Shown: one piece after another, positions 9,056 to 34,976 of the stretch
Layout: every line of letters begins with the position of its first letter
Position numbering within the stretch: position 1 is the first letter of the stretch
Virus record (IMG/VR): IMGVR_UViG_2671180676_000009
Reading direction: 5' to 3' (one strand)
Length of the DNA stretch: 34,976 nt
Origin: a virus
Taxonomy: Duplodnaviria; Heunggongvirae; Uroviricota; Caudoviricetes
Position numbers and translations under genes: made by a program
The notes under the pieces: model-generated
Told to the model about the DNA's origin: nothing
Databases searched by the model: none
The model's input: the letters and a program-made list of their open reading frames with translations, nothing else

Positions 9056-9081
<26 letters not shown>
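8536..9081 (+). CDS. nu1: Terminase small subunit Nu1 (181 aa)
   Basis: MEVNKKQLADIFGASIRTIQNWQEQGMPVLRGGGKGNEVLYD... near-identical to lambda Nu1. Confidence 0.95.
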
Positions 9082-12762
<3,681 letters not shown>

Positions 12763-12782
<20 letters not shown>

Positions 12783-23788: not shown

Positions 23789-23847
23789 TGAAAAACGTTT
23801 ATGTGAAACCGCCTCCGGGCGGTTTTGTCGTTTATGGAGCGTGAGGA

Positions 23848-26800
23848 ATGGGTAAAGGCAGCAGTAAGGGGCATACTCCGCGCGAAGCGAAGGACAACCT
23901 GAAGTCCACGCAGCTGCTGAGTGTGATCGATGCCATCAGCGAAGGGCCGGTTGAAGGTCCGGTGGATGGATTAAAAAGCGTGCTGCTGAACAGTACGCCA
24001 GTGCTGGACAGTGAGGGGAATACCAATATCTCCGGCGTCACGGTGGTGTTCCGGGCCGGTGAGCAGGAGCAGACACCGCCGGAGGGATTTGAATCCTCCG
24101 GCTCCGAGACGGTGCTGGGTACGGAAGTGAAATACGACACGCCGATCACCCGGACCATCACGTCGGCAAACATTGACCGACTGCGCTTTACCTTCGGTGT
24201 GCAGGCACTGGTGGAAACCACCTCAAAGGGGGACCGGAATCCGTCGGAAGTCCGCCTGCTGGTTCAGATACAGCGTAATGGTGGCTGGGTGACGGAAAAA
24301 GACATCACCATTAAAGGCAAAACCACCTCGCAGTATCTGGCCTCGGTGGTGGTGGATAACCTGCCGCCGCGCCCGTTTAATATCCGGATGCGCAGGATGA
24401 CGCCGGACAGCACCACAGACCAGTTGCAGAACAAAACGCTCTGGTCGTCATACACCGAAATCATCGATGTGAAACAGTGCTACCCGAACACGGCACTGGT
24501 CGGCGTACAGGTGGACTCGGAGCAGTTCGGTAGCCAGCAGGTGAGTCGTAATTATCATCTTCGCGGGCGCATTCTGCAGGTGCCGTCGAACTATAACCCG
24601 CAGACGCGACAATACAGCGGTATCTGGGACGGAACGTTAAAACCAGCATATAGCAACAACATGGCCTGGTGTCTGTGGAATATGCTGACCCATCCGCGCT
24701 ACGGCATGGGGAAACGTCTTGGTGCGGCGGATGTGGATAAATGGGCGCTGTATGTCATCGGCCAGTACTGCGACCAGTCGGTGCCGGACGGCTTTGGCGG
24801 CACGGAGCCGCGCATTACCTGTAATGCGTACCTGACCACACAGCGTAAGGCGTGGGATGTGCTCAGTGATTTCTGCTCGGCGATGCGCTGTATGCCGGTA
24901 TGGAACGGGCAGACGCTGACGTTCGTGCAGGACCGACCGTCGGATAAGGTGTGGACCTATAACCGCAGTAATGTGGTGATGCCGGATGATGGCGCGCCGT
25001 TCCGCTACAGCTTCAGCGCCCTGAAGGACCGCCATAATGCCGTTGAGGTGAACTGGATTGACCCGAACAACGGCTGGGAGACGGCGACAGAGCTTGTTGA
25101 AGATACGCAGGCCATTGCCTGTTACGGTCGTAATGTTATGAAGATGGATGCCTTTGGCTGTACCAGCCGGGGGCAGGCACACCGCGCCGGGCTGTGGCTG
25201 ATTAAAACGGAACTGCTGGAAACGCAGACCGTGGATTTCAGCGTGGGCGCAGAAGGACTTCGCCATGTGCCGGGCGATGTTATTGAAATCTGCGATGATG
25301 ACTATGCCGGTATCAGCACCGGCGGTCGCGTGCTGGCGGTGAACAGCCAGACCCGGACTCTGACGCTCGACCGTGAAATCACGCTGCCATCCTCCGGCAC
25401 CACGCTGATAAGCCTGGTTGACGGGCAGGGGAATCCGGTGAGCGTGGAGGTCCAGTCCGTCACTGACGGCGTGAAGGTGAAAGTGAGCCGTGTTCCTGAC
25501 GGCGTTGCCGAATACAGCGTGTGGGGACTGAAGCTGCCGACGCTGCGCCAGCGCCTGTTCCGCTGCGTGAGTATCCGTGAGAACGACGACGGCACGTATG
25601 CCATCACCGCCGTGCAGCATGTACCTGAAAAAGAGGCCATCGTGGATAACGGGGCGCACTTTGACGGCGACCAGAGCGGCACGGTGAATGGTGTCACGCC
25701 GCCAGCGGTGCAGCACCTGACCGCCGAAGTCACCGCAGACAGCGGGGAATATCAGGTGCTGGCGCGCTGGGACACGCCGAAGGTGGTGAAGGGCGTGAGC
25801 TTCCTGCTCCGTCTGACCGTAACAGCGGATGACGGCAGTGAGCGGCTGGTCAGCACGGCCCGGACGACGGAAACCACATACCGCTTCACGCAGCTGGCGC
25901 TGGGGAACTACAGGCTGACAGTCCGGGCGGTAAATGCGTGGGGGCAGCAGGGCGATCCGGCGTCGGTATCGTTCCGGATTGCCGCACCGGCAGCGCCGTC
26001 ACAGATTGAGCTGACGCCGGGCTATTTTCAGATAACCGCCACGCCGCATCTTGCGGTTTATGACCCGACGGTACAGTTTGAGTTCTGGTTCTCGGAAAAG
26101 CGGATTACCGATATCAGGCAGGTTGAAACCACAGCACGCTATCTTGGCACGGCGCTGTACTGGATAGCCGCCAGTATCAATATCAAACCGGGCCATGATT
26201 ATTACTTTTATATCCGCAGTGTGAACACCGTTGGCAAATCGGCATTCGTGGAGGCTGTTGGTCAGCCGAGTGATGATGCATCCGGTTATCTGGATTTTTT
26301 CAAAGGCGAGATAGGGAAAACCCATCTGGCTCAGGAGCTGTGGACGCAGATTGATAACGGTCAGCTTGCGCCTGACCTGGCTGAAATCAGGACGTCCATT
26401 ACGGATGTCAGCAATGAAATCACGCAGACCGTCAATAAGAAACTGGAAGACCAGAGTGCGGCAATTCAGCAGATACAGAAGGTTCAGGTTGATACAAATA
26501 ATAACCTGAACAGCATGTGGGCTGTGAAGCTGCAGCAGATGCAGGACGGACGCCTTTATATCGCGGGTATTGGTGCCGGTATTGAGAACACCCCTGACGG
26601 CATGCAGAGTCAGGTGCTGCTGGCGGCGGACAGGATTGCGATGGTTAATCCTGCGAATGGCAACACAAAACCGATGTTTGTTGGTCAGGGCGATCAGATA
26701 TTCATGAACGACGTGTTCCTGAAACGCCTGACGGCCCCCACCATTACCAGCGGTGGAAATCCACCGGCATTTTCCCTGACTCCGGACGGAAAGCTGACCG

Positions 26801-27345
26801 CTAAAAATGCGGATATCAGTGGCAGTGTGAATGCGAACGCCGGGACGCTCAACAATGTCACGGTAAATGAAAACTGTACGATTAAGGGCATGCTGGAGGC
26901 GACTCAGGTCAGAGGTGACTTCGTTAAAGCTGTATCCAAATCATTTCCGAAACAGGCTGGTACGTGGGGTAACACGGAAACACCAAACGGGACGGTTACA
27001 GTCACCATAAGCGATGATCATAACTTTGACCGTCAAATCATTATTCCGCCCATTATCTTTAACGGAATAGCGTATAGCGATCCGGGAAGTGGTAATAACC
27101 CGGGAGGTACAAGATACACGGGTTATGGTTTTGAAGTTCGCAAAAACGGTGTATTAATCGCATCCAGAGAAACTAAAGGGGCTATTCCCGGTAGCTACAG
27201 TGCGGTTATTGATATGCCGAGTGGCAGGGGAAGCGTCACTCTGGAGTTTAAGGTTTTCCATAAAGGCAATCAGTGGGCAGGTAATATCACCGACTGTACG
27301 GTGATTGTGACCAAAAAAGCGGCTTCAGGCATCAGTATTCGTTGA
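23848..27345 (+). CDS. J: Tail tip / host-specificity protein J (1165 aa)
   Basis: [41 protein letters not shown]...; lambda-like over most of its length but with a different, longer C-terminal segment. Confidence 0.9.
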
Positions 27346-27415: not shown

Positions 27416-28015
27416 ATGCGTAAAGTTTGTGCAGCCATTTTGTCCGCAGCCATTTGTCTGGCCGTATCCGGTGCGCCTGCATGGGCGTCTGAACATCAGT
27501 CCACGCTGAGCGCGGGGTATCTTCATGCCCGGACCAACGTTCCCGGCAGTGATGATCTGAACGGGATTAACGTGAAATACCGTTATGAGTTTACGGATAC
27601 GCTGGGGATGGTGACGTCATTCAGCTATGCAGGAGACAAGAATCGCCAGCTTACCCGTTACAGCGATACCCGCTGGCATGAAGATTCCGTGCGTAACCGC
27701 TGGTTCAGCGTGATGGCGGGGCCGTCTGTGCGCGTGAATGAATGGTTCAGTGCGTATGCGATGGCGGGCGTGGCTTACAGCCGTGTGTCGACTTTTTCCG
27801 GGGATTATCTCCGCGTAACTGACAACAAGGGGAAAACGCACGACGTGCTGACCGGAAGTGATGACGGTCGCCACAGCAACACGTCTCTGGCGTGGGGAGC
27901 TGGCGTGCAGTTTAACCCGACCGAATCCGTGGTTATTGATGTCGCTTATGAAGGTTCCGGCAGTGGTGACTGGCGCACTGACGGTTTCATCGTGGGTGTC
28001 GGTTATAAATTCTGA
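27416..28015 (+). CDS. lom: Lom outer-membrane protein (Ail/Lom family beta-barrel, 199 aa)
   Basis: Signal peptide [24 protein letters not shown]; C-terminal ...GVGYKF; AGAGG RBS. Confidence 0.9.
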
Positions 28016-28042
28016 TTAGCCAGGTAACACAGTGTTATGACA

Positions 28043-28068
28043 GCCCGCCGGTTCAGGCGGGCTTTTTT
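28043..28068 (+). terminator. Rho-independent terminator after lom
   Basis: GCCCGCC-GGTTCA-GGCGGGC followed by TTTTTT. Confidence 0.7.
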
Positions 28069-28079
28069 GTGGGGGGAAT

Positions 28080-31000
28080 ATGGCAGTACGGATTTCAGGT
28101 GTACTGAAAGATGGCGCAGGTAAGCCGATACAAAACTGCACCATTCAGCTAAAGGCCAGGCGCAACAGCACCACGGTGGTGGTGAACACAGTGGCCTCAG
28201 AAAACCCGGATGAAGCCGGGCGTTACACAATGGACGTCGAGTATGGTCAGTACAGCGTCAGTCTGTTGGTGGAAGGATTCCCGCCGTCACATGCCGGGAC
28301 CATCACCGTGTATGAAGATTCCCGACCCGGTACGCTGAATGATTTTCTCGGTGCCATGACGGAGGATGATGCCCGTCCGGAGGCTCTGCGCCGTTTTGAA
28401 CTGATGGTGGAAGAGGTGGCGCGTAACGCGTCCGCGGTGGCACAGAACACGGCAGCCGCGAAGAAGTCAGCCAGTGATGCCGGCACATCTGCCAGTGAGG
28501 CGGCAACCCATGCGACTGATGCTGCAGGCTCAGCGCGTGCAGCCAGCACGTCAGCCGGACAGGCCGCGACGTCGGCTCAGGAGGCGTCTTCCAGCGCAGG
28601 AACGGCATCAACAAAGGCCACTGAAGCATCAAAAAGTGCTGCCGCTGCAGAGTCCTCAAAAAGCGCGGCGGCCACCAGTGCCGGTGCCGCGAAAACGTCA
28701 GAAACGAATGCTGCAGCGTCACAAAAATCAGCAGCCACTTCTGCATCCACTGCGACGACGAAAGCGTCAGAAGCCGCCACTTCAGCCCGGGATGCGGCGG
28801 CCTCCAAAGAGGCGGCAAAATCATCAGAAACGAACGCCTCCACAAGCGCCAGCAGTGCAGCCTCCTCGGCAACGGCGGCAGGAAATTCCGTGAAGGCGGC
28901 AAAAACGTCCGAGACGAATGCTAAGTCTTCTGAAACGGCAGCGGAACAGAGCGCCTCAGCTGCGGCAGACTCTGAGACAACAGCTGCATCATCGGCCCGT
29001 GAGGCGTCCATTAAGGCAGAGGAGGCAGCAGTCAGTGCCACCGCCGCCGGAAAATCGGCAGAAAGCGCCGCATCATCCGCTTCAACAGCCACAACGAAGG
29101 CTGGCGAAGCCACTGAACAGGCCAGCGCAGCAGCGAGGTCTGCTTCCGCAGCGAAGACATCCGAAACGAACGCGAAAGCGTCGGAAACCAGCGCAGAATC
29201 CTCAAAAACGGCTGCCGCATCGTCCGCCAGTTCGGCGGCGTCATCGGCATCATCGGCGTCTGCTTCAAAAGATGAGGCGACCAGACAGGCGTCAGCAGCG
29301 AGGGGCAGCGCCACGACGGCATCCACGAAGGCGACAGAGGCTGCTGGCAGTGCGGCAGCGGCAGCACAGAGCAAAACGGGCAGAGGATATTGCATCCGCC
29401 GTGGCGCTTGAGGATGCGAGCACGACGAAAAAGGGGATAGTACAGCTCAGTAGTGCGACTAACAGCACTTCCGAGTCACTGGCGGCAACACCAAAAGCCG
29501 TTAAGGCCGCGTATGACCTGGCTAACGGGAAATACACCGCACAGGATGCAACGACAGCACAGAAAGGGATAATCCAGCTAAGCAGCGCGACCAACAGCAC
29601 GTCTGAAACGCTTGCCGCGACACCAAAGGCAGTAAAAGCAGAAACGTCTGCAGAAAGATCAGAACGGTGCGGATATCCCTGGCAAAGATACCTTTACGAA
29701 AAATATTGGTGCCTGCCGTGCCTTCGGTGGGTCAGTAAGCACAACAACAGGAAACTGGACGACTGCACAGTTTATCGAGTGGCTGGATTCTCAGGGAGCA
29801 TTTAACCATCCATACTGGATGTGCAAGGGTTCCTGGTCTTATGGCAATAATAAAATCATTACTGATACTGACTGCGGTAATATTCATCTCGCCGGAGCTG
29901 TCATTGAAGTAATGGGGATAAAGTCAGCGATGACGATCCGCATTACCACACCGACCACCTCCACTGGTGGTGGAACAACTAACGCCCAGTTTACCTATAT
30001 TAATCACGGAACAGATTATTCACCTGGCTGGCGAAGGGACTATAACTCCAGAAATAAGCCAACGGCATCAGAGATCGGGGCGTTACCGTCAGGTGGAACA
30101 GCAGTATCATCAGTTAATCTGGCTTCAAAAGGTCGGGTAACCGCGCTGACAGACAATACGCAGGGGGCAGCAGGTCTTGAGTTATACGAGGTGTATAACA
30201 ACGGATATCCAACAGCGTATGGAAATATCATTCACCTGAAAGGGATGACAGCCGTTGGCGAAGGTGAGTTACTCATCGGCTGGAGTGGTACAAGCGGTGC
30301 TCATGCTCCGGCATTTATTCGTTCACGACGGGATACGACCGACGCAAACTGGTCGCCGTGGGCGCAGCTTTACACCTCGGCTCATCCTCCTGCAGAGTTT
30401 TATCCAGTCGGTGCACCAATCCCGTGGCCATCAGATACCGTTCCGTCTGGCTATGCCCTGATGCAGGGGCAGACTTTTGACAAATCTGCATACCCGAAAC
30501 TTGCAGTTGCTTATCCGTCAGGCGTGATCCCTGATATGCGTGGCTGGATGATTAAGGGCAAGCCCGCCAGTGGTCGGGCCGTATTATCTCAGGAACAGGA
30601 CGGCATTAAATCGCACACCCACAGCGCCAGCGCATCCAGTACGGATTTGGGGACGAAAACCACATCGTCGTTTGATTACGGAACCAAATCCACGAATAAC
30701 ACCGGGGCGCATACCCATAGTATTAGCGGGACCGCAAATAGTGCCGGTGCGCACCAACACAAGAGTTCCGGTGCATTTGGTGGCACGAACACGAGCATTT
30801 TCCCTAATGGTTATACCGCGATTTCAAATCTAAGCGCGGGGATTATGAGCACAACAAGCGGTAGTGGCCAGACTCGTAATGCAGGGAAGACATCATCAGA
30901 TGGTGCTCATACCCACTCGCTGTCCGGCACTGCTGCAAGCGCAGGCGCACATGCACATACTGTCGGTATTGGTGCTCATACGCACTCCGTTGCGATTGGT

Positions 31001-31093
31001 TCACATGGACACACCATCACCGTTAACGCTGCTGGTAACGCGGAAAACACCGTCAAAAACATCGCATTTAACTATATTGTGAGGCTTGCATAA
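28080..31093 (+). pseudogene. stf: Side tail fibre gene stf split across three reading frames (junctions near 29373-29376 and 29654-29656)
   Basis: Frame 0 (28080-29411) has the Stf N-terminus and A/S/T-rich repeat; frame 1 has AKRAEDIASAVALEDASTTKKGIVQLSSATNSTSE...ATPKAVKA; frame 2 continues to the His-rich Stf C-terminus ...[14 protein letters not shown]. Confidence 0.75.
28430..29370 (+). repeat. Low-complexity Ala/Ser/Thr-rich repetitive segment of Stf with recurring KTSETNA-type units
   Basis: About 310 codons dominated by A, S, T, K, E with repeated AAKTSETNA / AKSSETNA motifs; yields long spurious ORFs in other frames and on the opposite strand. Confidence 0.7.
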
Positions 31094-31668
31094 TGGCATT
31101 CAGAATGAGTGAACAACCACGGACCATAAAAATTTATAATCTGCTGGCCGGAACTAATGAATTTATTGGTGAAGGTGATGCATATATTCCGCCTCATACA
31201 GGTCTGCCAGCAAACAGTACCGATATTGCACCGCCAGATATTCCGGCTGGCTTCGTGGCTGTTTTCAACAGTGATGAGTCATCGTGGCATCTCGTTGAAG
31301 ATCATCGGGGTAAAACTGTTTATGACGTGGCTTCCGGCGACGCGTTATTTATTTCTGAACTCGGTCCGTTACCGGAAAATGTTACCTGGTTATCGCCGGA
31401 AGGGGAGTTTCAGAAGTGGAACGGCACAGCCTGGGTGAAGGATACGGAAGCAGAAAAACTGTTCCGGATCCGGGAGGCGGAAGAAACAAAAAACAACCTG
31501 ATGCAGGTAGCCAGTGAGCATATTGCGCCGCTTCAGGATGCTGCAGATCTGGAAATTGCAACGGAGGAAGAAATCTCGTTGCTGGAAGCATGGAAAAAGT
31601 ATCGGGTATTGCTGAACCGTGTTGATACGTCAACTGCACAGGATATTGAATGGCCAGCACTGCCGTAG
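31093..31668 (+). CDS. tfa: Tail fibre assembly chaperone Tfa (191 aa)
   Basis: ATG overlaps stf stop (TAATG); [48 protein letters not shown]... as Tfa proteins. Confidence 0.9.
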
Positions 31669-31765
31669 GGTAAAACATATAAATTCTATAATTAGATGTA
31701 TCTTTCCATTTACGGCAAGGAAGGGGGCTTGGAAGACGTAAAGCATCTCACACCGAGATTATTTT

Positions 31766-32356
31766 TTATATGTCAGGTGTCTGAAGTTTTGCTTTGGCTC
31801 TTAAAATGGTTTGCCGCGAGGTTTTGAATTCCCGGGCAATGGCACTTATACTTACACCTGACTTAATTCGTTCGAATACCGCCTGTTTCTGTTCTTCATT
31901 TAACACAGGTGGTCGACCAAAACGTTTCCCTGCGCCGCGGGCTCTTACTATCCCGGAATGAGTGCGTTCAAGTAAAAGGTCTCGTTCAAATTCAGCGACT
32001 GCTGAAATTACTTGCATCATCATTTTTCCTGTTGGACTGGTCAGGTCAATGCCCCCCAATGCTAAGCAATGCACTCTGATACCTGTTTCGGTCAGTTGTT
32101 CCACTGTTTTCCTGATATCCATTGCATTACAACCAAGGCGATCCAGTTTTGTCACAATCAATTGATCACCACATTTCAGGCGAGCAAGCAACCGGTTAAA
32201 ACCAGGACGCTCACTGGTTGCTGCTGAGCCGCTAATGTGTTCTTCGATTATTTGCTGAGGTTTGATTTTAAAACCTGCACTTTCGATTTCCCGGCGTTGA
32301 TTTTCGGTGGTCTGATCCAGCGTTGATATCCGACAGTAAGCAAAAATTTGAGACAT
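31766..32356 (-). CDS. pin: Serine recombinase, Pin/Gin/Hin-family DNA invertase (196 aa)
   Basis: [20 protein letters not shown]... with catalytic Ser in CRIST, resolvase core and C-terminal HTH; convergent with tfa. Confidence 0.9.
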
Positions 32357-32672: not shown

Positions 32673-32906
32673 TTACATTTTACCATTTAAATTTTGGTTG
32701 TCTTTAAGAACTGATATCGCTGTTTGTAATAATTCTTTGTTATCCAGCCATGATTTTTTCTTTATGTTTCCTTCAATGTAATCAAGCAATGTTCTGGTAT
32801 TGATAGGTCTTCCCTGTTTTGCTACTTCCACTACAGCATCCCCTAGGATAATTCTTACTTCAGGAAGCTGCGCAGGGAACCACTTTAGGGTGTCTTTTGA
32901 TTTCAT
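32673..32906 (-). CDS. ydfK: YdfK/YnaE-family small protein (77 aa)
   Basis: MKSKDTLKWFPAQLPEVRIILGDAVVEVAKQGRPINTRTLLDYIEGNIKKKSWLD...; AAGGAA 7 nt upstream of ATG at 32906. Confidence 0.8.
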   Translation of the reverse strand: MKSKDTLKWFPAQLPEVRIILGDAVVEVAKQGRPINTRTLLDYIEGNIKKKSWLDNKELLQTAISVLKDNQNLNGKM

Positions 32907-33692
32907 GAAGATATTCCTTAAAATATTATTGATTTTCATTGCGATATTGTATGTCTGATTCAGGATATGTTGACTTATACATCGGTTTTGTCTGGGTTAT
33001 TGGATATGCCAATCCCTAATTTTATTAGGGCATGACTAAAAATGCTGAATATGATAAGGAGAGATGTGATTATCAGTATGCTGTTCATATAGCCTCGAAT
33101 TAGTAATGTGTTATATATGATATAGTTGACAATTTTTATCTTGGGTGTTCTTAAAGTTCGTAGATAAACATTGTCGTTTCAGGTATACAGGAATGCTAAC
33201 AGGTGGCAGCAAAAATCAGGCGGTTTATGGCGCAAGCTGAAGCGGCAACTGCAAACTATCTTATGCAGAGACTCTACACGGATTGGGTTTAAAAGTATAC
33301 ATAGATAACAGTTTTTATCTGAAAAAGAAAAATATCAAGGTGATATAGCCTATATGCCTTTGATGCGGAGGAATGAATGTGATGGGAGTGATGTATCTGA
33401 ATAGTTGAAAAACCGCAGACACGCCTTATGCAAGAACGTGCTGCGATTGGCTGGTAAATTTTTCGATAGTGTGAGTATTGAATGATTTCTAGCCGTTCTT
33501 GATTTTACGCATAAATCCATGAAAAAACTACTTATCTGTTGGGGAGTTTTTTTGGGGCATATATGGGACAGAAATAGGCCCCAGATAGACACTGAGATCG
33601 AACTTAGGATGCTTTTTAAAAAAATGCAACTATCTGAAAAAACCTAGAAAACGCCAAGGAAACCACAGGATGGGAAAAAACACCTGTGAATT

Positions 33693-34976
33693 ATGGATTT
33701 CCAGTTATATTCGCTCGGCGCAGCGTTAGTGTTTCATGAAATATTTTTTCCTGAATCATCAACGGCAATGGCGTTAATTCTGGCAATGGGAACCTACGGT
33801 GCAGGTTATGTGGCGCGTATTGTCGGAGCATTTATTTTCGGCAAAATGGGCGACAGAATAGGGCGTAAAAAAGTGCTCTTTATTACCATCACCATGATGG
33901 GGATCTGTACCACCTTAATTGGTGTGTTACCGACCTATGCACAGATTGGTGTTTTTGCACCCATCTTGCTGGTGACGTTGCGTATTATTCAGGGGTTGGG
34001 TGCAGGTGCGGAAATTTCCGGTGCCGGTACGATGCTGGCGGAATATGCGCCAAAAGGTAAGCGCGGAATTATCTCCTCATTTGTGGCTATGGGAACTAAC
34101 TGCGGAACCTTGAGCGCAACGGCAATCTGGGCCTTTATGTTCTTCATTCTCAGTAAAGAGGAACTGCTGGCGTGGGGATGGCGTATACCGTTCCTGGCGA
34201 GTGTTGTCGTGATGGTCTTTGCTATCTGGTTGCGTATGAATCTGAAAGAAAGCCCGGTCTTTGAGAAGGTTAACGACAGTAACCAACCGACAGCAAAACC
34301 TGCACCTGCTGGTAGCATGTTCCAGAGCAAATCCTTCTGGCTGGCAACAGGGCTGCGTTTTGGTCAGGCGGGTAACTCCGGGTTAATTCAGACTTTCCTT
34401 GCAGGCTATTTAGTGCAGACGTTATTGTTTAACAAAGCAATTCCAACAGATGCATTGATGATCAGTTCGATTCTCGGCTTTATGACCATTCCGTTCCTTG
34501 GTTGGTTATCCGATAAAATTGGTCGCCGGATCCCGTATATTATTATGAATACCTCCGCGATTGTGCTGGCATGGCCAATGCTTTCTATCATTGTAGATAA
34601 AAGCTATGCCCCGAGCACCATTATGGTTGCACTGATTGTGATTCATAACTGTGCGGTGCTGGGATTATTTGCTCTGGAAAACATTACCATGGCAGAAATG
34701 TTCGGCTGTAAAAACCGCTTTACCCGGATGGCTATTTCTAAAGAAATTGGTGGTCTTATCGCTTCCGGTTTTGGTCCTATCCTGGCGGGTATTTTCTGCA
34801 CCATGACGGAATCCTGGTATCCGATCGCCATTATGATCATGGCATATTCAGTGATTGGTTTAATCTCTGCGCTGAAAATGCCAGAGGTGAAAGACCGTGA
34901 TTTAAGTGCGCTGGAAGACGCTGCGGAAGATCAACCGCGTGTTGTAAGAGCTGCGCAACCTTCCAGAAGTCTGTAA
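33693..34976 (+). CDS. ydfJ: MFS metabolite:H+ symporter-family transporter, apparently N-terminally truncated (427 aa)
   Basis: ORF begins inside the conserved TM1 motif (MDFQLYSLGAALVFHEIFFPE); in-frame stop 6 nt upstream; 12-TM MFS features downstream (GDRIGRKK, RIIQGLGAGAE). Confidence 0.7.
   Translation: MDFQLYSLGAALVFHEIFFPESSTAMALILAMGTYGAGYVARIVGAFIFGKMGDRIGRKKVLFITITMMGICTTLIGVLPTYAQIGVFAPILLVTLRIIQGLGAGAEISGAGTMLAEYAPKGKRGIISSFVAMGTNCGTLSATAIWAFMFFILSKEELLAWGWRIPFLASVVVMVFAIWLRMNLKESPVFEKVNDSNQPTAKPAPAGSMFQSKSFWLATGLRFGQAGNSGLIQTFLAGYLVQTLLFNKAIPTDALMISSILGFMTIPFLGWLSDKIGRRIPYIIMNTSAIVLAWPMLSIIVDKSYAPSTIMVALIVIHNCAVLGLFALENITMAEMFGCKNRFTRMAISKEIGGLIASGFGPILAGIFCTMTESWYPIAIMIMAYSVIGLISALKMPEVKDRDLSALEDAAEDQPRVVRAAQPSRSL

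What the first reader, a model, noticed from the sequence alone, without database searches (positions are those of the whole stretch)
29365..29385. First frame break in side tail fibre gene stf at an A4 run
Frame 0 reads ...AAAAAQSKTGRGYCIRRGA-stop, while the +1 frame reads ...AKRAEDIASAVALEDASTTKKGIVQLSSATNSTSE, a conserved tail-fibre segment. The two authentic readings overlap at AAAA (29373-29376), consistent with one extra A. This resembles the classical laboratory-lambda stf frameshift that splits the fibre gene into two ORFs.
Basis: partly seen in the sequence, partly recalled or inferred. Interest (0 to 1): 0.55.

Follow-up and report, generated by a model that had tools for sequence, protein, structure and literature searches.

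The report
44-bp deletion breaks prophage tail-fibre gene
The side tail fibre gene of an E. coli lambda-like prophage is broken here by a 44-base deletion between two short direct repeats, not by one extra A, which makes it an ordinary lineage-specific pseudogene in a decaying prophage.

Summary
The frame break is real. Frame 0 of stf (start 28080) leaves the authentic reading after Lys432 (AAA, 29373-29375) and stops at TGA 29409-29411. The conserved reading continues in the +1 frame.

The cause is not an extra A in the A4 run. Intact stf genes of phages PhiR42_1, mEp460 and SPF_0923 and of E. coli USMARC-51408 show that the window lacks 44 bp. That segment lay between two copies of the 7-bp repeat AGCAAAA, and one copy remains at 29370-29376.

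A second deletion of 17 bp lies at 29639/29640. Putting both segments back gives one uninterrupted 1024-codon ORF.

Neither junction occurs in 5,426 complete E. coli genomes. Junction 1 is also absent from the phage records, the GTDB representatives and the metagenome contigs searched. Both deletions are present in at least ten independent public assemblies, including E. coli UVM2, so this is not an assembly artefact.

The lambda PaPa lesion is a different event: one C lost from a C4 run further downstream.

The truncated product keeps the tail-attachment domain and loses the fibre repeats and the receptor-binding end. The same prophage also has a frameshifted head-protease gene. This is an ordinary pseudogene, of low interest.

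The parts
28080..31093 (+). stf (side tail fibre) pseudogene, broken into three reading frames by two deletions
   Evidence: Synteny is J - lom - stf - tfa - pin. The gene is 94-96% identical to the intact stf of PhiR42_1 and mEp460. Restoring 44 + 17 nt gives one 1024-codon ORF.
28080..29411 (+). N-terminal fragment ORF of 443 codons: 432 authentic residues, an 11-residue out-of-frame tail (TGRGYCIRRGA) and TGA
   Evidence: Pfam finds only phage_tail_N (PF08400) at residues 1-134, E = 1e-71.
29370..29376 (+). Deletion-1 junction: the single retained copy of the 7-bp direct repeat AGCAAAA. Intact alleles have two copies, and the 44 bp from the start of the first copy to the start of the second is missing here.
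   Evidence: Alignments. The microhomology length of 7 was computed.
29377..29411 (+). Out-of-frame read-through after the junction (frame 0), ending at stop codon TGA 29409-29411
29371..29639 (+). Middle stf segment, authentic in the +1 frame (AKRAEDIAS...KAVKA). It carries the two Phage_fiber_2 repeats.
29638..29641 (+). Deletion-2 junction: 17 bp (AGCCAATGACAATGCTG) is missing between 29639 and 29640, with 2-bp microhomology (AG)
29640..31093 (+). C-terminal stf segment, authentic in the third frame. The 424-codon ORF from the internal ATG at 29819 (GenBank OAC06150.1) carries the Collar domain and the receptor-binding end.
28577..29395 (-). Spurious antisense ORF of 272 codons across the Ala/Ser-rich region. 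It spans junction 1 and is what gene callers annotate in public assemblies instead of the sense fragment.
   Evidence: Lambda has a comparable antisense ORF, orf206b.
31093..31668 (+). tfa (tail fibre assembly chaperone), intact
   Evidence: PF02413 Caudo_TAP; tfaQ

Best explanation
stf in this E. coli lambdoid prophage, inserted at the Qin/ydfJ site, was inactivated by a 44-bp deletion between two copies of the 7-bp direct repeat AGCAAAA. The repeats lay 44 bp apart in the Ala/Ser-rich shaft-coding region, and one copy is left at 29370-29376. The most likely mechanism is RecA-independent slipped-strand mispairing, or another microhomology-mediated deletion, during replication. This step is inferred.

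Because 44 = 3x15 - 1, translation shifts frame after Lys432 and ends 11 codons later at TGA 29409-29411. A second, 17-bp deletion 263 nt downstream (29639/29640) shifts the frame again.

The only sizeable product is a 443-residue fragment. It keeps the N-terminal tail-attachment domain and lacks the fibre repeats, the collar domain and the receptor-binding end. Any particles made would therefore lack side fibres, as in lambda PaPa. This consequence is inferred.

The allele is fixed in a small E. coli lineage. It belongs to a prophage that also carries a frameshift in its head-protease gene.
For: - **Lesion:** four intact relatives carry exactly 44 extra bases between AGCAAAA copies (PhiR42_1, USMARC-51408) or near-copies (mEp460, SPF_0923). 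Lambda itself has the corresponding segment.
- **Repair test:** re-inserting 44 + 17 nt gives one 1024-codon ORF, the same length as WP_260223107.1.
- **Microhomology:** only 0.27% of possible 44-bp deletions in this gene, and 0.11% of all 5-200-bp deletions, have 7 bp or more of flanking homology.
- **Private to a lineage:** 40-nt junction probes find nothing in 5,426 complete E. coli genomes. For junction 1, the two halves lie 44 nt apart in every top-listed hit, and 467 genomes hold both halves. For junction 2, the two halves lie 17 nt apart in the listed hits.
- **Reality:** both deletions are present, with 99.8-100% identity, in 11 fetched loci from ten public assemblies. These include UVM2, a phylogroup A, ST1091 bovine mastitis isolate (PMC4966475), and one ENA metagenome.
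- **Domain loss:**
- **Role of the N-terminal domain:** residues 1-94 of lambda Stf form the collar on the tail, and Stf binds OmpC (PMC12617516).
Against: - The slippage mechanism is inferred only from the flanking repeat. No hairpin or other structural promoter of deletion was detected.
- The order of the two deletions is unknown. No allele carrying only one of them was found.
- No read-level data could be examined.
- Expression of the fragments and the particle phenotype were not tested.
Confidence: 0.93

Rival explanations
1. One extra A in the A4 run: a +1 insertion in a homopolymer of an otherwise intact allele.
For: The two authentic readings do overlap at AAAA. Deleting one A restores the frame locally, giving ...AAAAAQSKRAEDIAS....
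Against: The one-A-removed allele would lack 15 codons that every intact relative examined has. That allele is absent from 5,426 complete E. coli genomes. A single 44-bp deletion between 7-bp repeats explains everything in one event.
Confidence: 0.03
2. Sequencing or assembly artefact: the 44 bp is present in the real genome.
For: No complete genome carries the junction. All carriers are short-read drafts or a metagenome.
Against: The same junctions occur in 11 fetched loci from ten assemblies with different accession prefixes and years, plus an ENA metagenome. All are gapless against the window. A 7-bp repeat is far too short to collapse an assembly.
Confidence: 0.02
3. Programmed translational recoding: ribosomes shift +1 at the A run and make a full-length fibre.
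For: None beyond the presence of an A4 run.
Against: Relatives encode this region in a single frame, so no conserved recoding site exists. A second +1 shift would be needed at 29639/29640. The product would still lack 15 + 6 codons.
Confidence: 0.005
4. The window is ancestral and the relatives gained 44-bp and 17-bp insertions.
For: None.
Against: The longer form is the one with an open frame. In the searches that show both halves of each junction, every listed hit has them 44 or 17 nt apart, and neither junction occurs in any of the 5,426 complete genomes. The longer form is also in lambda, which is only about 87% identical.
Confidence: 0.005

Closest known systems
Lambda PaPa (laboratory lambda) stf frameshift, which splits stf into orf-401 and orf-314
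   Same: It affects the same gene, at the same position in the genome (J-lom-stf-tfa). The outcome is the same: an N-terminal fragment of about 400-440 aa that keeps the tail-attachment domain, a separate C-terminal ORF, an intact tfa and loss of side fibres (PMC12617516).
   Different: The lambda lesion is the loss of one C from a CCCC run at stf nucleotide 1184. Here the lesion is a 44-bp deletion between 7-bp direct repeats, at a site equivalent to about nucleotide 985 of lambda stf, followed by a second, 17-bp deletion. The two have independent origins. The lambda lesion arose in laboratory stocks, and this one is in natural E. coli isolates.
Cryptic-prophage tail-fibre remnants of E. coli K-12 (Qin stfQ/ydfN-tfaQ-pinQ, Rac stfR)
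   Same: The chromosomal site and flanking genes are the same: tfaQ, pinQ, ydfK, ynfT and the truncated ydfJ, as annotated in the intact relative. The process is also the same, namely prophage gene decay.
   Different: Here the prophage is nearly full length (terminase to stf) and collinear with intact relatives, apart from four small indels in 25 kb. From my own knowledge, not tested here, K-12 Qin has lost most of its structural genes.
Deletions between short direct repeats by slipped mispairing (the classic lacI deletion spectrum; named from established knowledge)
   Same: One repeat copy and the intervening DNA are lost, the other copy is kept, and the repeat is 7 bp long. Flanking homology this long is very unlikely by chance.
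   Different: Nothing differs in kind. The mechanism is inferred from the footprint, not shown.
stf loss-of-function mutants selected experimentally in lambda on plates (PMC2762979)
   Same: Frameshifting indels spread along stf abolished the side fibres. Of 21 low-adsorption isolates, 19 had stf mutations, 15 of them frameshifts.
   Different: Those mutants were selected during lytic growth in the laboratory. There is no evidence here that the deletion was selected rather than neutral.

Membership tests
Lambda-type side tail fibre gene (stf) | N-terminal 'prophage tail fibre N-terminal' domain (PF08400) | tested here: met
   PF08400 covers residues 1-134, E = 1e-71.
Lambda-type side tail fibre gene (stf) | Position between lom and tfa, downstream of J | tested here: met
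   The order is J 23848-27345, lom 27416-28015, stf 28080-31093, tfa 31093-31668. The same order is annotated in relatives.
Lambda-type side tail fibre gene (stf) | Phage_fiber_2 repeats and a C-terminal collar/receptor-binding region in one continuous ORF | tested here: not met
   The domains are present only after in-silico repair. In the window they lie in two other frames, so this is a pseudogene of the family.
Lambda PaPa-type stf frameshift | Loss of one C from the CCCC run at stf nucleotide 1184 | tested here: not met
   Comparing J02459 with KT232076 locates the lambda lesion. The window's lesions are 44-bp and 17-bp deletions at other positions.
Homopolymer-run single-base frameshift | Run length differs by one base from intact alleles that are otherwise collinear | tested here: not met
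   Intact alleles differ by 44 bases, not by 1. No allele with AAA at the junction was found.
Short-direct-repeat (slipped-mispairing) deletion | The deleted segment is bounded by a direct repeat and one copy is retained | tested here: met
   AGCAAAA occurs twice, 44 bp apart, in PhiR42_1 and USMARC-51408, and once in the window.
Short-direct-repeat (slipped-mispairing) deletion | Arises by replication slippage, independently of RecA | not testable with these tools
   This is inferred from the footprint only.
Programmed ribosomal frameshift | The frame change is conserved among homologues at a slippery site | tested here: not met
   The homologues are in a single frame across this region.

The most novel reading that the evidence does not exclude
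Loss of the side fibres was selected rather than neutral in this lineage. Two independent out-of-frame deletions hit stf within 270 bp, while the other 22 kb of structural genes carry only one coding indel. This echoes the repeated selection of stf frameshifts in lambda grown in structured environments. Alternatively, the retained 443-residue collar fragment may still have a structural role on the tail.
Probability: 0.08. Interest if true: 0.3.

Novelty: new member of a known kind. Interest (0 to 1): 0.1.

Why it matters
The finding matters mainly for annotation. It corrects the cause of the break from a one-base homopolymer error to a 44-bp deletion between repeats. It shows that stf here is a true pseudogene with exactly two lesions. 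It also shows that public gene calls for these assemblies annotate a spurious antisense ORF instead of the real N-terminal fragment.

The two junction sequences are unique markers for a small E. coli lineage that includes the bovine mastitis isolate UVM2. Beyond that, this is one more natural example of the stf loss known from laboratory lambda, and it opens no new question.

Tried and rejected
- **Exact look-ups that found nothing.** I looked up the 443-aa sense fragment, the 295-aa +1 ORF and two fragments of the broken protease gene in the public gene-position index. None is on record, because gene callers do not call them.
- **Wider distribution.** I therefore could not tell whether those genomes carry the same deletions or other stf lesions.
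- **Cluster look-up.** The antisense ORF is not in the cluster collection.
- **Junction 1 elsewhere.** It was not found in the GTDB species representatives, JGI metagenome contigs, IMG/VR or the GenBank phage records.
- **Hairpin-promoted deletion.** Folding the deleted segments as single-stranded DNA gave nothing beyond the shuffled controls, with z = +0.8 and -0.5.
- **The one-extra-A model.** It fails on comparison with intact alleles and on the absence of the required precursor allele.
- **Strain H3.** I looked at it as a possible example of another stf lesion. There the region is a heavily rearranged prophage remnant at a different site, so it was not informative.

Full report
**Context**

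The window is the right arm of a lambda-like prophage of E. coli, ending in chromosomal DNA.

| Feature | Coordinates |
|---|---|
| terminase | 9056-10981 |
| portal | 11181-12782 |
| tape measure | 18885-21446 |
| J | 23848-27345 |
| lom | 27416-28015 |
| stf | 28080-31093 |
| tfa | 31093-31668 |
| Pin-type invertase | 31766-32356, minus strand |
| ydfK | 32673-32939, minus strand (first in-frame ATG; relatives annotate a 77-aa product) |
| ydfJ (N-terminally truncated) | 33693-34976 |

The closest complete genome, E. coli USDA-ARS-USMARC-51408, has the same gene order, annotated tfaQ, pinQ, ydfK, ynfT and ydfJ. This is the Qin prophage site. The last 5 kb of the window differs from that genome at only 5 positions, so the host is E. 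coli.

**Observation**

AAAA lies at 29373-29376. Frame 0 reads ...AAAAAQSKTGRGYCIRRGA and stops at TGA 29409-29411. The +1 frame reads ...AKRAEDIASAVALEDASTTKKGIVQLS. The gene is stf. Residues 1-134 match Pfam phage_tail_N (E = 1e-71). The +1 segment carries two Phage_fiber_2 repeats, E = 6e-37 in the repaired protein.

**What the lesion is**

A search of GenBank phages found uninterrupted stf genes that are 94-96% identical to the window:
- PhiR42_1, 3078 nt as annotated (3072 nt from the start codon used in the window)
- mEp460_ev081, 3072 nt
- SPF_0923

An alignment of these with the window shows exactly two indels in the conserved 5' two-thirds of the gene.

- **First deletion.** 44 bases are missing from the window. 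Intact alleles read CACAG-AGCAAAA-GTACGGCAGAATCCGCAGCAACGCGCGCCGAGACAGC-AGCAAAA-CGGGCAGAGG. The window reads CACAG-AGCAAAA-CGGGCAGAGG. One copy of a 7-bp direct repeat and the 37 bases between the copies have gone. The surviving copy is at 29370-29376.
- **Second deletion.** 17 bases (AGCCAATGACAATGCTG) are missing between 29639 and 29640.

The same two gaps appear against the E. coli chromosomal relative. Across 25 kb, the only other indels are a 1-base insertion at 12970 and a 1-base intergenic deletion at 23797.

Putting the 44 and 17 bases back gives a single 1024-codon ORF with no internal stop. This is the same length as the relative's protein. These two deletions are therefore the only lesions in stf.

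**Why it is not an extra A**

Removing one A does restore the local frame. The resulting protein would lack 15 residues (STAESAATRAETAAK or the equivalent) that every intact relative examined has, lambda included. A probe for that hypothetical in-frame allele found nothing in 5,426 complete E. coli genomes. One 44-bp deletion is the single-event explanation.

The 7-bp flanking repeat is itself strong evidence for that event. Only 0.27% of possible 44-bp deletions in this gene, and 0.11% of all possible 5-200-bp deletions, have flanking homology this long. The 2-bp homology at the second deletion is uninformative, because 14% of possible deletions have as much by chance. Neither deleted segment folds better than shuffled controls, so no hairpin contribution is indicated.

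I infer slipped-strand mispairing, or another microhomology-mediated deletion, in the repeat-rich Ala/Ser-coding shaft region. That region holds twelve direct repeats of 7 bp or more, spaced 100 bp or less apart, within a 600-nt stretch.

**Real or artefact, and how widespread**

Junction-specific 40-nt probes were designed so that neither half reaches the 28-base word size. They find no match in any of the 5,426 complete E. coli genomes, for junction 1 or junction 2. Every listed top hit to the flanks has the two halves 44 or 17 nt apart. Junction 1 is also absent from the GenBank phage records, IMG/VR, the GTDB species representatives and the JGI metagenome contigs.

The allele is nevertheless reproducible.
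- The exact 424-residue C-terminal ORF (OAC06150.1, E. coli) is on 5 public contigs.
- The exact 272-residue antisense ORF that spans junction 1 is on 11 contigs.
- All 11 loci I could fetch come from ten assemblies, including one ENA metagenome. They align to the window without gaps at 99.8-100% identity, so each carries both deletions.
- One carrier, LAUD00000000, is E. coli UVM2, a phylogroup A, ST1091 isolate from acute bovine mastitis (PMC4966475).

No allele carrying only one of the deletions was seen, so their order is unknown.

**Consequence**

This part is inferred. The largest product is a 443-residue fragment. It keeps the N-terminal domain, which in Ur-lambda forms the dodecameric collar that anchors the fibres to the tail (PMC12617516). 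It lacks the fibre repeats, the collar domain (Pfam Collar) and the receptor-binding end. The 424-codon ORF starts at an internal ATG with no visible Shine-Dalgarno sequence in the preceding bases. It has no attachment domain. Any particles would lack side fibres.

The prophage is probably not viable in any case. Its S49 head-protease gene, the counterpart of lambda C, has an extra C at 12970 that truncates it after about 69 authentic codons. This lesion too is reproduced in an independent assembly.

**Comparison with lambda PaPa**

Comparing J02459 (PaPa) with a lambda record that has an uninterrupted stf shows the classical lesion directly. One C is lost from AAAGCCCCACTGG at stf nucleotide 1184. 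That is a different type of lesion, about 170-200 nt downstream of the position equivalent to the break here, and it arose independently. The two cases share the outcome, not the event. stf frameshifts are also readily selected in lambda grown on plates (PMC2762979). Repeated loss of this gene is therefore known behaviour.

**Verdict**

The feature is an ordinary, lineage-specific pseudogenising deletion in a decaying prophage. It is a new instance of a well-known kind and of low interest.

Noticed in passing
window 29639/29640: There is a second frame break in stf. A 17-bp deletion (AGCCAATGACAATGCTG) with only 2-bp microhomology shifts the frame again. It co-occurs with the 44-bp deletion in every carrier assembly examined.
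   Followed up: yes
window 12763-14083 (lesion at 12970): The S49 head-protease gene, the counterpart of lambda C, is frameshifted by one extra C (GGACCACG to GGACCCACG) after about codon 69, with a stop at 13186-13188. The same lesion is in GCA_001576315.1 (L021, 100% identical over 9681-14282). Relatives have an intact 439-aa gene.
   Followed up: partly
window 28577-29395, minus strand: A 272-codon antisense ORF runs across the Ala/Ser-rich part of stf. Automatic gene callers annotate it in the public assemblies instead of the true 443-codon sense fragment. Lambda's orf206b is the same kind of antisense ORF.
   Followed up: partly
window 29819-31093; proteins P0002 and P0003: Near-identical 424-aa 'tail fibre' proteins starting at the same internal ATG are annotated in Shigella sonnei and on 35 other E. 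coli contigs. Their stf genes must therefore also be broken upstream.
   Followed up: partly
window 23797: A one-base deletion relative to E. coli USMARC-51408 lies in the spacer between the tail assembly gene I and J. It is next to a GC-rich hairpin (AAACCGCCTCCGGGCGGTTTT) and is probably of no consequence.
   Followed up: no
window 28039-28069: A terminator-like hairpin followed by a T run (CAGCCCGCCGGTTCAGGCGGGCTTTTTTG) lies between lom and the stf start codon.
   Followed up: no
window 31668-32356: A Pin-type serine invertase gene lies 98 bp downstream of tfa, on the opposite strand. No alternative tail-fibre cassette lies between them, so there is no obvious invertible segment for it to act on.
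   Followed up: no
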